Below are positions 24,001 through 30,000 of a stretch of 64,000 bases of DNA, piece by piece. The number at the start of each line of letters is the position of its first letter. Position 1 is the first letter of the stretch. This DNA comes from Styela clava (Eukaryota). Made by a program: the position numbers. Where the stretch lies: the NCBI RefSeq assembly GCF_964204865.1, contig NC_135256.1:6324001-6388000 (forward strand). The letters are read 5' to 3'.

Positions 24001-27000
24001 GTGGTTATGACGTCATAAAAGCCAAAAGTTCATGAGCCAAAAGCGTATTTGAAGGAGGCCGTATTTGAATACAAATAAATGCAATGTGGCCGCCATTAGC
24101 AAAAAGGTTGTGCACCCCTGATCTATATGAATGTAATATAATATATGCCTATAAAATTAAATGTATTCTTTGTACAAATAAATAGCTGTTTGACAAATTT
24201 TCTGGTTTTCTGGCGACCACCCTGTATAAAAATCTTCCACGTAAGCGAAACTTTGGTATCACAAGTACCAATCGCCATGAAATATTATCAGGCATTACTG
24301 ATTTGATGGAGTTATTCCTTATTTGCCTTCCGGCGTTACATAAAAACAGGCTTTCGACTGTAATTTTTGGCGCGACCCATTACATTATATAATTTGCAAA
24401 TTGATTGCATTAGATTAAGCGTGTGAATAAAAATACTCCACATTCTATTGCCGAAGGCGTAAAAAGTAAATTCATTTTATGAACAATATTTTCGATGTTA
24501 CAAAAACGAAAGTATAAAACAATAAGTTTTGTGCCAAAACTAAATTTAATCGCAACATCAACAAATTCCTCAAGCCATTTTTAGCTCAACATCCAAATTC
24601 GGTTTTAGTTCGGTTGCGGCAGCATCAGCCGAGCCAAATTTAACTATCCAGCGGTCCGGATTTTGCCCGCGGGCAGTAGTTTGCCAGTGTTTGAATAGAA
24701 TCTCAAATTTGAATGGAAACTTGAGGAACCCCTGAAATAGCGATACCCTGATGTGGTGCAACCCTGATATAGGGTTTCAACTTACCATGGAATGATCCTT
24801 CCCACGAACCGGGGTAAGTGTCGTGGACATTATCAATTATTTGGAAATTAGTTCGTTCGAAAACGTAGATAAAATATGCTGATATAAAGTTTTGCTTTGA
24901 TGCTGTTTACATTATTGTCTGGAAATGTTTAATGAAACAATTCGAGTTTGTCAGACGACACAGAACTCAATATTGACTCTGTTAAAAGAAATGTTTACTT
25001 ATTTTTCGTTCTCAAATATCATTTTAAACCTCTCTATAAATGTTTCTAGGTATGAGAACTACCCCCCCCCCCCCCAAAAAAAAAAAATACCGCCGATTTC
25101 ATTATTACTATTTTTCATATATACGACACTAAAGTCTTTAGTGCTTAGCTTTAGGGACTGACTCGAAAACGTATGAATGGCCCTGGCATTTTAGGTACAT
25201 CATAGATAACCTTAACACAAATCTATCTCACCATAATTGGCATCATTCTCAGATTTATTTTGTCTATTTCTCACATTCAATTTACCAACACTGAAGACAA
25301 GTTACCCATAAACACTTCTGGACTTACCGTGAGATATTCAATAGTTTTTTTAACTATGGCATAGTTACTGGTTTCAAAATGTTTCGCCAATGGATTATAT
25401 GTTGAACGCAAAAATTGTTCATTTGTAGCGCGAGCTGTCTACGTCATTGATCAATATTTTGCATGTTTGAATGTGAGAAATAGACAAAATACATTTATTA
25501 TGATGATGCCAATCATGGCCTGCTATAACTTAATCTATTCCGAAATTATTTTTACTGCACTGGACAATTATATATTACCGTATTCGGTCTGCTTTTAACG
25601 CCTTTAACAATAGAATATATTTATTATGTATGAGTGATAGTTTAGCTGTAACAGGTATTCGTAGAAAGTGACTGTTATGTAAGGTTTTTAGAAGTTTTAA
25701 AAAGATGATAACAGCTACTTAAATATATTTTTGAAACGAACGAAAACCGTTAAACGCTCAAATCTATTTGCAAATTAATTACATTTTATTCTTATACTTC
25801 AGATGCAAAAGTCGTCCGCGCCAAATTACAGCCTTACTGCTAATTTTATAAAACGCCTGAAGCCTAAAAATTAGCAATGCCTGGTAATTCTTGGCAATTG
25901 ATATTTGTGATACCAAAGTTTCGCTTTTGTAGAAGATTTGTATAGTTCTGTTTGATGTTCGATTATTGTAAATAGACTGACATGGTAGACTACTATCAGA
26001 ACGAATATGTGTTCGATTATTGAAAGTATACTGTTATGGTAGACTGCTATCAGGACGAATGTGTGTTGTTAATTACTTTTAATATCATCAGAAACCATTC
26101 TGCTATAGGCTTCAGCCCGGGGTATACCGCTCTATTATCCCTCTGTGGTAGACCTAGAGTTGAAACTGGGTAGGCTAAAGAGGCGGCATTGGCGATTTGA
26201 GGGAATACAAACGCAATAATAATGAAGAAAATACAAGACCAAACCTGTCCTATTTGTCTTGAAAACAAAGAAGATTTGAGAATGTTACCATGCTGGCATG
26301 TTGCTTGTATGAATTGTATACTCAGCATGGCACAACGTGGTGAAGGAAGGTGAGTGATGCCAGAAACATAATGAGATAGAGAACAGAATTTTGATCTTTT
26401 TCCTTGAGAGAGGAAAGCCGATAGGACGGCTTAATAATGCGACGTATACGCCATTTCGGGCATGGGAATTTAGCCAGTAATTTGTTTCAGATGCTTGGCC
26501 TCGATGGTGGAGAAAGTCGTAACTGACTTGCGAATATATGAACCACCCTACGACGGTGAGGATTCCTCTCGAACATAATTATTTCCCACGGGATTCGAAC
26601 CTTGTTGTTGTTGTTATATGTTTTAGGGCGCTTATAACTTCAGTGGTCTTTTGCGCTTTTGATTATTTTGAATTTAAAAATCATATACTAACATATAATA
26701 CAATATTATACAATATTATACAATTGAATCAATTACAATAGGTAATTTTTTCTAAATATTTCGAACCTGCGAACCCACGCAGGGTGTTGTGCAGGGACGT
26801 GCGATGAAAAACGTATTATTAGAACACCTGTGGTTTGTAAGTACAGAAGTAGGATAGATTTATAGATTCGGGATTACCCATCGTTCAGGCATGTTTATAA
26901 ACATTGACTTAACATTGTTTTTTAACATTAGTGAACTAAAACAAAAGCAAACATTTTCAACCTGAAATCAGTAGCCTACATAGAACGACAGTATGCCAGA

Positions 27001-30000
27001 CAATGGAAAAAATAATTTGTTGACGGGTTTCAGCGTTTTACTGCAAATAATTGTTTGCTATTTGTTTGTGTTTTGAAATAGTTTGACGTATAGCCCCAAA
27101 ACTTAAATTAAATTCAGGTCTCATTATTGTTCACATTTCATTTGCTTCACAGAGCTGTGAAATGTCATATCTGCAGACAAATATGTTTATTTGAAAATAT
27201 TCGTTACCTTCCCAAACCTTTAAGATGTGGATGTTGCAATCAATTCCTGAAATGTTCAAAAATAATGCCATGTTGTTCAAAACTGTACTGCGTCGATTGC
27301 ATCACGAGGAAATCAACAGAAAACGAGTAAGTGTTTTTTTTTTATAGTCTGTGTCATATTTTTTACAGTTGCTGATATTTGAAGATTCGCAGATAAATTT
27401 TTTTTTATCACATAGGGTGATCCCAGAAAAATCGAAACCCGTAAATTTCTTTATTACTTCTACAAAAATGGGAAAAATCATTCACTTTTATTTGTGTATG
27501 ATTGTACCCAAAAGTTTTAGAAATCTAGGACATTTTGTGTAGATAATTGGACGCTCCAGAAGTATGTGTACCAATATGGAGGTAACTAATTTTGTTCGCC
27601 TACTTTACATCGAGTTGTGTAAAGGGACTGAAACCTATGAGCAGGGGGATATTCACTTGGCTAACACAGACAGTCCCTGAACTCGTAATAGAAATAAAGT
27701 AAGAAAACTCGGAATAAAATTATGACCTAACCCACATATACATACTATATGGGAGTACCGATAATTGACTAGCGTACGTCCATGTTTCCAATCTTCATTC
27801 CTTCCTAACCGATATTATTCATGTTTGTATCAATTTCAATTATGATTTTATTTGGCGCAGCGCTCAGTTGACTTGCCCAGGTCGTTGTCCACGCGATTTC
27901 AACAGCGTCGATGAATTGCCACAATCGAAGTTATGTAGTTCGTGTCTCCACTTTCATTCCGACGATACGACATTGGGTGATTACTCAATTTGTGCCAGAT
28001 GTGACCAGAAAGTACGGGAAGACATAAGGTAATAAGAGAGAAATGCTTACACCAATGGTAGCCAACATTTTTCGTTGAATTTTCCCATTCGCCTATTTTG
28101 GAACTAGTTATTTCTCTCTCACTATGCAGAAAAACTACTTTATTTGTTCAGTCTTTATTTGGTTCTCAGCTAGTGTGAAGTACAAGTCGCGCTACCGCTT
28201 GTGTACAGTTCAAGTAGTTTATAACGTTTGCATTACGTGTTTCAAAAACAATAAAGAACTATAAATACTACTAGGAAAAATTCCCCCCTACAAAAAAACT
28301 CCTTCCTGGGGAAGAATTTCTTTCGGCTGGCAAACACGGGCTTAGCTTAGGTGCAATAGTAAGCAGGTGAATTGTCGTGCGTTCAAATTACGGGTGCAAA
28401 TGTAATGGAACTGTTACAAAGATATATGCTTATGTTTATTTGAAAATATTCGTTACCTTCCCAAACCTTTAAGATGTGCATGTTGCAATCAATTCCTGAA
28501 ATTTTCAAAATTTATGCCATGTTGTTCAAAATCATACTGCCTCAATTGCCTCACGAAGAAGCCAACAGGAAAAGAGTAAGTAATTTATTTTTATTCTTTA
28601 CATTTGCTGATATTTAAACATTCGTTGATAAAATTATTTTATTTTGATCACACAGGGTGACCCCCCAAAAAATCGAAACCCGTAAATTTCTATATTACCT
28701 TTAAGAAAATGGAGTAAATCATTCAATTTTTAACACATGAACTTCGATTTGTGTATGATTGTATTCAAAAGTTCCAGAAATCTAGGACATTTTGTATATA
28801 GATAATTGGCTAATGTAGTACGTTCACGTTTTACATCTCCATACCTTCCTAACCGATAATAATGTTTGTATTAATTGTGATTTTATTTTGCCTAGTGCTC
28901 GGTGGTGTCCAGGTCGTTGTCCACACGATTTGAACAGCATTGATGAATTGCCACAATCGAAATTATGTAGTTTGTGTTTCTGTTTACATTCCGACGATGC
29001 TTTATTGTGTGGTCACACAGTTTGTGCTGAATGTGACCAGAAACTACAGAAAGAAAAAAGGTAACCCCCAAAAAGTGGAAAAAACCGGAACTACTCTCCG
29101 TGAAAACTTAGAAATATTAAGACTGGGTGGTCTTGGATTCAAAATGTCCATTTCAGAATGCATTATAATAACTTTTGTCAAAAAGATATTCAAATGAAAT
29201 AATGCCAGTTATAATCACAAAGCATTGTGTTTCATTTTCTATATTATTGCTTATTAAATATTATATCAGTAATTCCAATTCTACTACTTTAAAACATTTT
29301 GTCTGATGATTATTATTGGTTCCAGGGGGTGTCCCTTGTGTTCGGCAGTAAAAAGTCCAGCGCCGATACCGACGGATCCAATTCAGCCAGTCCAAGGCCA
29401 AATTGAAATAACCATGGAAGGATTGGAAAATTCAAATTATCGACCACTTCAACAAAATCGTATGGGATTTTTCGTTCCTCCGCACACACTTAGCCTAATT
29501 CAACAATTGAACCGATCTCATGATCATTCCATGGTAAGTTGAAACCCTATGTCAGTGGTTTTCAACCGGGATTCGGCTGCACCACATCAGGGTATCGCCA
29601 TTACGTGGATTCCGCAAGTTTTCATCAAATTCAATATTCTATATTAAATAATTGATTTGATTATATAATCAAATACCCATCGAGTGTGCCCCTATTATTT
29701 AACTTGATAAACTTCACAGAACATCTTGTTTCACCAGTTTCAGGTTTGCTTTCATATGTGGTTTATGCGATTCAGATAATAAAAAAAAACGATTAAACTA
29801 TTGCAAAGGGGTTCCCAGAGCATCTAGAGTCTAGAATGTTTCAATGGGGTTCTACGTCATCGAAAAGGTCCGAAACTACTGCACTATATATATACACTCA
29901 AAACTACTGCTGAAATAAATTTACTTTCAAAACAATTTTTTATGTTTTTTCAGATACAGGATCGGGACGAATTGTTAAAAGCATTCTGCATTTACACATG

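What the first reader, a model, noticed from the sequence alone, without database searches (positions are those of the whole stretch)
26222..29533. Each RING is split by a phase-2 intron, giving symmetric exon cassettes that add or swap RINGs
Seen: introns fall before the last Cys pair of every RING, so each internal exon (174, 168, 165 nt; all phase 2-2) encodes the end of one RING and the start of the next. In copy C the exon 2-3 block has duplicated again: 27861-28028 carries a degenerate RING start (GDYSICARC) and 28896-29060 an intact one (CGHTVCAEC). Inference: the multi-RING array arose by exon duplication, and copy C could make mutually exclusive or additive isoforms with a live or dead third RING.
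Basis: partly seen in the sequence, partly recalled or inferred. Interest (0 to 1): 0.7.

Follow-up and report, generated by a model that had tools for sequence, protein, structure and literature searches.

The report
Split-RING exon cassettes in sea squirt
A sea-squirt gene for a membrane-anchored triple-RING protein has an intron inside every RING, so whole exons can be duplicated, skipped or swapped in frame; one copy has just done so, which is a neat but not surprising case of exon duplication.

Summary
The window is Styela clava (a tunicate, not human) and carries three tandem paralogs of a family found almost only in Styela. The proteins have an N-terminal C3HC4 RING, an RBBP6-like C4C4 RING, a second C3HC4 RING and a hydrophobic C-terminal anchor.

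In all three copies a phase-2 intron lies in the loop before the last Cys pair of each RING. The internal exons are therefore 2-2 cassettes of 174 nt and 168 or 165 nt.

Copy C (26222-30406) holds an extra block: a 5'-truncated exon 2, intron 2 and exon 3. The upstream exon 3 has lost zinc ligands 3 and 4 and evolves at dN/dS about 1. The downstream exon 3 is intact.

Public gene models already show:
- an additive form of copy C (both exons 3);
- a form of C that uses a 102-nt cryptic cassette from the truncated exon 2 in place of the intact exon 3;
- an exon-3-skipping form of copy A.

Origin of the array by duplication of exon units has moderate support. Regulated, functional isoforms are not shown, because no transcript data could be examined.

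The parts
26222..26349 (+). Copy C exon 1: start codon and the first six ligands of RING1 (CPIC...CWHVACMNC). It ends with 2 nt of a split codon.
   Evidence: Pfam PF00097 gives 34.6 bits (cut-off 21) over model positions 1-32 of 40. Found in P0001 at residues 1-42.
27153..27326 (+). Copy C exon 2, 174 nt, phase 2-2. It encodes the last Cys pair of RING1 (CHIC), a linker, and the first six ligands of the C4C4 middle RING (CGCC...PCCSKLYCVDC).
   Evidence: PDB matches to the RINGs of TRIM37, RBBP6 and RAD18. Found in P0001 and P0006.
27552..27733 (.). Short interspersed repeat inserted in intron 2 of the first unit only.
   Evidence: copies at 2695-2882, 45798-45979, 38726-38940, 49938-50132 and 58485-58546. 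Absent from the second unit.
27861..28028 (+). Copy C exon 3, 168 nt, phase 2-2. It encodes the end pair of the middle RING (CPGRC) and a degenerate start of RING3 in which ligand 3 is Cys->Gly and ligand 4 is His->Tyr (GDYSICARC).
   Evidence: 21 of 55 residues differ from A/B, and dN/dS against e3' is 1.02. Included in P0001 and P0006.
28029..28430 (+). Spacer between exon 3 and the second unit. It matches nothing else in the window.
28431..28575 (+). Exon 2' fragment: a copy of exon 2 that lacks its first ~29 nt and its acceptor, with the donor GTAAGT kept. The sub-part 28474-28575 (102 nt, phase 2-2) starts at the only phase-compatible AG and is used as an exon in P0006.
28896..29060 (+). 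Copy C exon 3', 165 nt, phase 2-2. It encodes the end pair CPGRC and an intact start of RING3 (CSLC...CGHTVCAEC).
   Evidence: 96.9% identical to exon 3 of A/B, dS 0.066. Weak Pfam RING matches. Found in P0001.
29326..29533 (+). Copy C exon 4: the last Cys pair of RING3 (CPLC) and a Pro-rich linker. Enters in phase 2 and leaves in phase 0.
29954..30406 (+). Copy C exon 5: a 150-residue hydrophobic C-terminal region, plus the stop codon.
   Evidence: No Pfam family.
15887..18683 (-). Copy A (LOC120328751): e1 18683-18556, e2 17631-17458, e3 17287-17119 (169 nt, A7 run, shifts the frame), e4 17044-16804, e5 16342-15887.
   Evidence: P0003 skips e3. P0007 includes it and reads e4 in the +1 frame.
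20675..23083 (-). Copy B (LOC144425248): e1 23083-22920 (first Cys pair of RING1 lost), e2 22406-22233, e3 22050-21883, e4 21808-21568, e5 21106-20675 (a CGA->TGA change removes the last 8 residues).
30703..30755 (+). Stray fragment resembling the 5' part of exon 1, downstream of copy C.
   Evidence: 87% to 26206-26258.

Best explanation
The region is the gene LOC120328916 of the tunicate Styela clava. It is one of three tandem paralogs of a small family, found almost only in Styela, of putative membrane-anchored RING E3 ubiquitin ligases. The layout is C3HC4 RING, RBBP6-like C4C4 RING, C3HC4 RING, linker, hydrophobic C-terminus.

A phase-2 intron sits in the ligand-6 to ligand-7 loop of each RING. 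Each internal exon therefore carries 'end of one RING + linker + start of the next' and is symmetric (2-2).

The array most likely grew by tandem duplication of such units (inferred). Copy C shows the process caught in the act. A block holding a 5'-truncated exon 2, intron 2 and exon 3 now lies between exon 3 and exon 4. The upstream exon 3 has lost zinc ligands 3 and 4 and drifts. The downstream exon 3' is intact and nearly identical to exon 3 of the neighbouring paralogs, possibly through gene conversion.

Because every cassette is 2-2, any combination stays in frame. Public gene models indeed include an additive form, a form using a cryptic 102-nt cassette, and a skipping form that joins a C4C4 start to a C3HC4 end pair.

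I take these extra or chimeric modules to be mostly in-frame by-products of a young, fast-evolving and partly decaying gene cluster, not a tuned isoform switch (inferred). E3 activity, zinc binding and membrane insertion are inferred from sequence only.
For: Identity.
- The exon 5 search found 5 proteins at E<=1e-3 among 293 candidates. All are named Styela clava, and the top one is 100% identical.

Architecture.
- Exon table with GT-AG sites and phases for A, B and C.
- Pfam calls two RING stretches in the three-module proteins.
- The middle module matches the RBBP6, TRIM37 and RAD18 RINGs: E 1.1e-4 with the family profile, 1.4e-3 to 8.5e-3 with exon 2 alone.
- Its spacing, C-x2-C-x11-CC-x4-C-x2-C, equals the RBBP6 consensus quoted in PMC1360078 (passage read).

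Duplication.
- Self-blastn.
- In a four-way alignment both C units share a ~150-nt intron-2 insertion that A and B lack. Its 23-nt core occurs only twice in the window.

Relaxation of e3.
- 21-22 of 54-55 residues differ, and dN/dS is 1.02 against e3'.
- e3' against A has dS 0.066, versus 0.22-0.31 for e1, e2, e3 and e5.

Isoforms.
- Exact containment of exon translations in P0001, P0006, P0003 and P0007.

Unit homology.
- hhalign P 1.5e-4; shuffles reached the score in 0 of 200 and 1 of 200 trials.

Family range.
- 5 of 22 hits at E<=1e-10 among 1.84 billion representatives.
- 9 clusters at E<=1e-6 among 3163 candidates. Eight are named Styela clava and one is unnamed.

Module census.
- One module in P0009; three in P0002, P0004, P0005, P0008 and P0010; four in P0001.

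Decay.
- Frameshift in A, lost Cys pair and nonsense codon in B.
- Exon 5 of A against C has dN/dS 1.52.
Against: - Pairwise e2-e3 similarity is not significant: BLASTP E 0.80; 325 of 2000 and 501 of 2000 shuffles reach the observed score. The hhalign probability is only 51%, and part of that signal is simply RING against RING.
- The degenerate e3 keeps an open frame, both splice sites, no indel and 6 of 8 ligands. This could mean constraint. However, in a neutral simulation 3849 of 20000 runs stayed open and 23.5% lost two ligands or fewer.
- Both structure predictions were poor, each with mean pLDDT 53.5. The fold search gave 0 of 500 matches at E<=0.001. The RING fold of the middle module therefore rests on sequence alone.
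- The right-hand breakpoint of the duplication could not be placed: the intron-3 5' flank test gave 129 of 1000 shuffles.
- The A7 frameshift could be an assembly error.
- I saw no transcript evidence behind the gene models.
Confidence: 0.6

Rival explanations
1. The cassettes form a regulated alternative-splicing system that deliberately adds, removes or swaps live and dead RINGs to tune ligase activity, for example E2 choice, dimerisation or dominant-negative forms.
For: - At least four different in-frame or cassette-using models are annotated for copies A and C.
- All cassettes are 2-2.
- Skipping produces a chimeric module with a full set of eight Cys (P0003, P0006).
- The degenerate e3 keeps its frame, its splice sites and zinc site 1.
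Against: - dN/dS of e3 is about 1, and open-frame retention is expected by chance in about 19% of neutral runs.
- The 102-nt cassette uses a cryptic AAG acceptor inside a truncated exon.
- The duplication is specific to one paralog. 5 of the 8 family genes seen are annotated with the plain three-module layout and copy A also encodes it.
- Pfam does not recognise the chimeric modules (one RING stretch in P0003 and in P0006).
- No expression data were seen.
Confidence: 0.2
2. The whole three-gene cluster consists of decaying pseudogenes or near-pseudogenes, and the annotated isoforms are the annotation pipeline's way of keeping frames open.
For: - Copy A's exon 3 shifts the frame, so the only full-length model skips it.
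- Copy B has lost the first Cys pair of RING1 and has a premature TGA.
- Copy C carries a dead module.
- Exon 5 has dN/dS 1.52 between A and C.
- P0006 stops after 56 of the 69 residues of exon 4.
Against: - e1 and e2 of A against C show dN/dS 0.22 and 0.40.
- All 8 ligands of RING1 and RING2 in A and C, and of RING3 via e3', are intact.
- All splice sites are canonical.
- A relative from an unnamed source sits on a 1246-nt contig that holds its 354-residue frame uninterrupted, as a spliced transcript would. This shows that the three-module form is expressed somewhere.
Confidence: 0.12
3. The three RINGs did not arise by duplication of an exon unit. Instead, unrelated RING-encoding genes or exons fused or were shuffled together, and the introns were gained independently or inherited from different ancestors.
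For: - The middle module is of a different RING subtype (C4C4, RBBP6-like) from its neighbours.
- Pairwise e2-e3 similarity is insignificant.
Against: - All three introns are in the same loop and the same phase.
- The e2 and e3 profiles align collinearly, including the linker motif before the first Cys, beyond what Cys/His-fixed shuffles give (1 of 200).
- A one-RING relative joins an e1-type start directly to an e4-type end (P0009).
- The same kind of duplication is seen happening in copy C.
Confidence: 0.1

Closest known systems
RBBP6 RING finger-like domain (C4C4 / U-box-like RING)
   Same: The middle module has the same ligand spacing, C-x2-C-x11-C-C-x4-C-x2-C, with a non-His residue at ligand position 4 (PMC1360078 passage). 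There are sequence matches to PDB 3ztg and 2yur.
   Different: The last pair is C-x3-C after 14 residues, where RBBP6 has C-x2-C after 12. There is no DWNN domain or zinc knuckle. The context is a multi-RING membrane protein. Zinc binding is untested.
TRIM59 / TRIM13 (RING proteins with a C-terminal membrane anchor). An older public annotation names one isoform 'TRIM59-like'.
   Same: An N-terminal C3HC4 RING whose best PDB sequence matches are TRIM RINGs (TRIM56, TRIM2, TRIM21), with a hydrophobic C-terminus.
   Different: No B-box was found by Pfam at E<=1, either per exon or in the full-length public proteins. Two further RINGs take its place. That TRIM59 and TRIM13 carry a membrane anchor is recalled, not tested here.
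RBR ligases with membrane anchors (RNF144, RNF19, RNF217; recalled)
   Same: Three Cys-rich modules in a row followed by hydrophobic segments.
   Different: No IBR was found by Pfam. The third module is a canonical cross-brace C3HC4 pattern with a C-x2-C end pair, not an Rcat pattern.
Tandem exon duplication in repeat proteins, with exon limits out of register with domain limits, and symmetric-phase cassette exons (general principle; PMC3632108 seen as listing and abstract start only)
   Same: Adjacent homologous exons of equal phase and near-equal length (168 and 165 nt, 77% identity). Inclusion or skipping keeps the frame.
   Different: The symmetric phase here is 2-2. The unit straddles a zinc-binding domain, so skipping creates chimeric RINGs instead of removing a whole domain. 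I found no paper describing this for RINGs: searches gave 4 and 0 papers, none on RINGs.
Mind bomb and other multi-RING E3s (recalled)
   Same: Several RINGs in one polypeptide.
   Different: No sequence relationship beyond the RING itself was seen. The 17 RING-only hits all have E>=3e-5.

Membership tests
C3HC4 RING finger (Pfam PF00097) | Eight zinc ligands spaced C-x2-C-x(9-39)-C-x(1-3)-H-x(2-3)-C-x2-C-x(4-48)-C-x2-C, and a profile match above the curated cut-off | tested here: met
   RING1: exon 1 alone scores 34.6 bits (cut-off 21) over model positions 1-32 of 40, and the last pair, CHIC, lies in exon 2. RING3: P0004 residues 138-174 match model positions 1-40 of 40 at 24.8 bits.
C3HC4 RING finger, applied to the module begun by exon 3 (27861-28028) | Ligands 3 (Cys) and 4 (His) present | tested here: not met
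   The sequence is GDYSIC where the paralogs have CGHTVC. No Pfam match.
RBBP6-type C4C4 RING | Spacing C-X2-C-X11-C-C-X-[NS]-X2-C-X2-C-X12-C-X2-C (PMC1360078) | tested here: inconclusive
   The first six ligands match the spacing exactly in all 7 family sequences aligned. The [NS] position is Lys or Gly. The tail is x14-C-x3-C. PDB matches have E 1.1e-4. The fold was not confirmed: pLDDT 53.5, and 0 of 500 fold matches at E<=0.001.
TRIM / RBCC | A B-box zinc finger after the RING | tested here: not met
   No B-box family at E<=1 in 6 exon translations or in 5 full-length public proteins.
TRIM / RBCC | A coiled coil after the B-box | not tested
   No coiled-coil predictor was run.
RBR (RING1-IBR-RING2) | An IBR domain, and an Rcat-type RING2 with a catalytic Cys | tested here: not met
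   No IBR match at E<=1. The third module has the canonical C3HC4 pattern.
Mutually exclusive tandem-duplicated exons | Adjacent homologous exons of the same phase and similar length | tested here: met
   e3 is 168 nt and e3' is 165 nt, both 2-2, at 77% identity.
Mutually exclusive tandem-duplicated exons | Exactly one of the two exons appears in each mRNA | tested here: not met
   The public model P0001 contains both. No model with only one of them was retrieved. The other isoforms could not be listed. Transcript data were not available.
E3 ubiquitin ligase | E2-dependent ubiquitin transfer | not testable with these tools
   Inferred from the RING modules only.

The most novel reading that the evidence does not exclude
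The family is a combinatorial 'RING-half' system. Every intron splits a RING between ligands 6 and 7 in the same phase, so splicing can pair any RING start with any RING end. This yields chimeric zinc modules, such as a C4C4 start with a C3HC4 end, and a variable number of RINGs on one membrane anchor. In this reading a fast-evolving, Styela-restricted tandem cluster uses the system to diversify E2 or substrate engagement, perhaps in immunity or self/non-self recognition. It would be the first described case of alternative splicing that remodels a RING's second zinc site instead of removing the domain.
Probability: 0.1. Interest if true: 0.7.

Novelty: new member of a known kind. Interest (0 to 1): 0.4.

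Why it matters
The locus is a clean, datable example of how symmetric-phase exons that straddle domain boundaries let a zinc-finger array grow, shrink and form chimeric modules without breaking the reading frame. All stages lie side by side: one-, two-, three- and four-module forms, a freshly duplicated unit, a decaying copy and a cryptic mini-cassette. It also defines an uncharacterised, lineage-restricted family of membrane-anchored triple-RING proteins in a tunicate. If the isoforms prove to be regulated, the locus would offer a natural system for asking what a RING made of halves from two different subtypes can do.

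Tried and rejected
- Pairwise e2 against e3 comparison was not significant.
- Pfam on exons 2, 3, 4 and 5 found no family.
- The ESM Atlas search on exon 5 gave a best score of 0.75, which is no lead.
- AlphaFold2 on P0005 with a 10-sequence alignment, and on P0007 with a 7-sequence alignment, each gave mean pLDDT 53.5. This is too poor to judge folds.
- Foldseek against the PDB with the second model gave 0 of 500 matches at E<=0.001. The top rows are RING domains (RAD18, RBBP6, TRIM25, TRIM2) at E about 0.2 and are not used as evidence.
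- I tried to place the right breakpoint of the duplication from intron-3 flanks. The 5' flank after e3 is not significantly like intron 3 of copy A (129 of 1000 shuffles). The flank after e3' is not either (448 of 1000). Only the 3' end before e4 is (0 of 1000).
- The spacer 28029-28430 and the stretch 29061-29290 match nothing else in the window.
The X1 isoforms of LOC120328916 and LOC120328751 therefore stayed unseen.
- Literature: no paper holds any of the six LOC identifiers. Searches for split RINGs, exon duplication or ascidian RING expansions gave nothing on this family (listings only).
- I rejected the TRIM59-like label (no B-box) and an RBR reading (no IBR).
The exon-intron structures of the other paralogs therefore stayed unchecked.

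Full report
WHAT THE WINDOW IS. The window is AT-rich (27-38% GC in 2-kb windows) and has no N. The translation of the last exon of the gene in question is 100% identical to the NCBI protein 'uncharacterized protein LOC120328916 isoform X2 [Styela clava]'. All 5 hits at E<=1e-3 among 293 candidates are named Styela clava. So this is a tunicate contig, not human. I searched my own exon model exon by exon. I made no joined sequence and ran no search with one. For whole-protein questions I used the public proteins that the searches returned.

THE OBSERVATION. A six-frame regex scan found 6 C-x-H-x2-C-x2-C sites, two in each of three gene copies. Copy A is at 15887-18683 on the minus strand, copy B at 20675-23083 on the minus strand, and copy C at 26222-30406 on the plus strand.
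- I recomputed exon limits, GT-AG sites and phases. In every copy, exon 1 ends after ligands 1-6 of a C3HC4 RING with 2 nt of a split codon.
- Exon 2 is 174 nt and 2-2. It gives that RING's last Cys pair, a linker and six ligands of a second module.
- Exon 3 is 168 nt and 2-2 in B and C. It gives the second module's end pair (C-x3-C), a linker and ligands 1-6 of a third RING.
- Exon 4 starts with the last pair, CPLC.
- Copy C has two exons 3. Exon 3 at 27861-28028 reads GDYSICARC. Exon 3' at 28896-29060 (165 nt) reads CGHTVCAEC.
- P0001 contains the translations of all six C exons letter for letter.

- The duplicated block in C also holds a copy of exon 2 at 28431-28575. It lacks the first ~29 nt and the acceptor, but keeps a consensus donor.
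- The only AG in that open frame compatible with phase 2 is at 28472-28473. It defines a 102-nt 2-2 mini-exon at 28474-28575.
- A public protein from an older annotation uses exactly this mini-exon after exon 3 and then goes straight to exon 4, skipping exon 3'. This is P0006, 'tripartite motif-containing protein 59-like isoform X3'.
- In copy A, exon 3 is 169 nt in this assembly, with an A7 run where B and C have A6. NCBI's model P0007 includes it, reads exon 4 in the +1 frame and stops at 191 residues. Model P0003 skips exon 3 and stays in frame at 332 residues.
- Copy B has lost the first Cys pair of RING1. A CGA>TGA change removes its last 8 residues.

ARE THEY ALL RINGS?
- Pfam calls RING1 from exon 1 alone: PF00097, 34.6 bits against a cut-off of 21, model positions 1-32 of 40.
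- Pfam finds two RING stretches in the three-module public proteins, which are RING1 and RING3.
- Pfam does not call the middle module. A profile of the family nonetheless matches the solved RBBP6 RING-like domain (3ztg, E 1.1e-4; 2yur) and the TRIM37 RING over profile positions 60-120. Exon 2 alone matches the TRIM37, RBBP6 and RAD18 RINGs at E 1.4e-3 to 8.5e-3.
- The middle module's spacing, C-x2-C-x11-CC-x4-C-x2-C, is that of the RBBP6 C4C4 consensus given in PMC1360078 (passage read).
- Two AlphaFold2 runs were too poor to confirm the fold, each at mean pLDDT 53.5. The fold search had 0 of 500 matches at E<=0.001.
- I therefore accept 'three RING-type modules', with the middle one a C4C4 variant supported by sequence evidence only.

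THE DUPLICATION IN COPY C.
- Unit 1 (27182-28034) and unit 2 (28431-29064) are 77-79% identical.
- Both share a ~150-nt insertion in intron 2 that A and B lack. Its 23-nt core occurs only at these two places in the window. The duplication therefore happened in the C lineage.
- Unit 1 later received a short interspersed repeat at 27552-27733, which has copies elsewhere in the window.
- Exon 3 of unit 1 differs from exon 3 of A/B at 32 of 165 nt and 21 of 55 residues. Its dN/dS is 0.67 against A and 1.02 against e3'.
- Exon 3' is 96.9% identical to A/B with dS 0.066. The rest of gene C against A has dS 0.22-0.31. This suggests gene conversion between e3' and the A/B type, or unusually strong conservation.
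- Exon 2' is about equally far from all exons 2, with dN/dS 0.77-0.97.
- Retention of an open frame by the degenerate exon 3 is weak evidence for constraint. In a neutral simulation with 32 random substitutions, 3849 of 20000 runs stayed open and 23.5% lost two ligands or fewer.
- The right-hand breakpoint could not be placed.

DID THE ARRAY ARISE BY EXON DUPLICATION?
- Single-sequence tests say nothing: BLASTP E 0.80, with 325 of 2000 full shuffles and 501 of 2000 Cys/His-fixed shuffles reaching the observed score.
- Profiles of seven e2-type and seven e3-type modules align collinearly over 42 columns. The alignment includes the linker motif before the first Cys. hhalign gives P 1.5e-4 and probability 51%.
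- Column shuffles reached that score in 0 of 200 trials, and in 1 of 200 with the Cys/His columns fixed.
- All three introns share the same loop and the same phase.
- A one-RING relative joins an e1-type start directly to an e4-type end (P0009).
- The live example in copy C adds to this. Together these points make unit duplication the best reading at moderate confidence.
- One tandem duplication with both breakpoints in exons would create the first 2-2 unit. This last point is my inference.

THE FAMILY.
- A full HMMER scan of 1.84 billion representatives with P0005 gave 22 hits at E<=1e-3. Only 5 were at E<=1e-10, and the other 17 match a RING only.
- A profile search of 5.8 billion proteins gave 9 clusters at E<=1e-6 among 3163 candidates. 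Eight are named Styela clava. One is unnamed and sits on a 1246-nt contig that holds an uninterrupted 354-residue frame, as a spliced transcript would.
- I counted modules in the 8 distinct genes seen. There is one module in P0009 and four in C's public model, with the third dead. There are three in P0002, P0004 (B), P0005, P0008 and P0010, and three are encoded by A.
- Exon 5 has no Pfam family and no Atlas lead. It has several hydrophobic stretches. Between A and C it has dN/dS 1.52.
- A and B are 96.8% identical over 2719 nt.

HOW IT LIKELY WORKS. What is shown is the exon-phase architecture, the duplication, the damage to individual copies, and the existence of public models that add, skip or swap cassettes. 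What is inferred is that the proteins are membrane-anchored RING E3 ligases, and that the extra or chimeric modules are mainly in-frame by-products of a young, turbulent cluster. I recall, and did not check, that NCBI only issues alternative isoforms when alignments support them. I saw no transcript data. The X1 isoforms could not be listed.

COMPARISON AND NOVELTY.
- The TRIM59-like label fails the B-box test.
- An RBR reading fails the IBR test.
- Tandem exon duplication with symmetric phases is textbook knowledge.
- No paper mentions these loci. My searches found none describing RINGs split in this way.
- I rate the finding a new member of a known kind, with interest 0.4.

Noticed in passing
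window 17119-17126 (copy A, end of exon 3): There is an A7 run where copies B and C have A6. This makes exon 3 169 nt long and shifts the frame. NCBI model P0007 reads through it to a stop at 191 residues. It could be a real mutation or a homopolymer assembly error.
   Followed up: partly
window 22920-23083 and 20675-20677 (copy B): Sequence upstream of 23002 is unrelated to exon 1 of A or C, so the first Cys pair of RING1 is missing. A CGA>TGA change also removes the last 8 residues.
   Followed up: partly
window 30703-30755: An orphan fragment 87% identical to the first 53 nt of the exon-1 region of copy C, including an ATG and a C-x2-C. It lies about 300 nt downstream of copy C's stop codon.
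   Followed up: no
window 15078-17772 vs 19835-22540: Copies A and B are 96.8% identical over 2719 nt, from exon 2 through the 3' flank. Their exon-1 regions are only 83% identical. This points to a very recent duplication or conversion of the 3' parts.
   Followed up: partly
window 29954-30403 vs 15890-16342: The hydrophobic C-terminal exon has dN 0.33 and dS 0.22 (ratio 1.52) between copies A and C. The RING exons 1 and 2 have ratios of 0.22 and 0.40.
   Followed up: no
window 27552-27733; 2695-2882; 38726-38940; 45798-45979; 49938-50132; 58485-58546; also 31521-31770 vs 44073-44321: A family of short interspersed, partly inverted repeats (74-97% identity), probably miniature transposable elements. 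One sits in intron 2 of copy C's first unit.
   Followed up: no
P0006 compared with window 26222-29533: The older public isoform differs from the window at residue 2 (E instead of K). It ends after 56 of the 69 residues of exon 4. This suggests a different assembly version or haplotype, or a partial model.
   Followed up: no
window 36371-37264 (+) and 40133-40714 (-): Neighbouring genes. One is an open frame of 298 residues with matrin/JAZ-type C2H2 zinc fingers (PF12874, 2.4e-17). The other is an exon encoding a GCN5L1/BLOC1S1-like domain (PF06320, 3.9e-39).
   Followed up: partly
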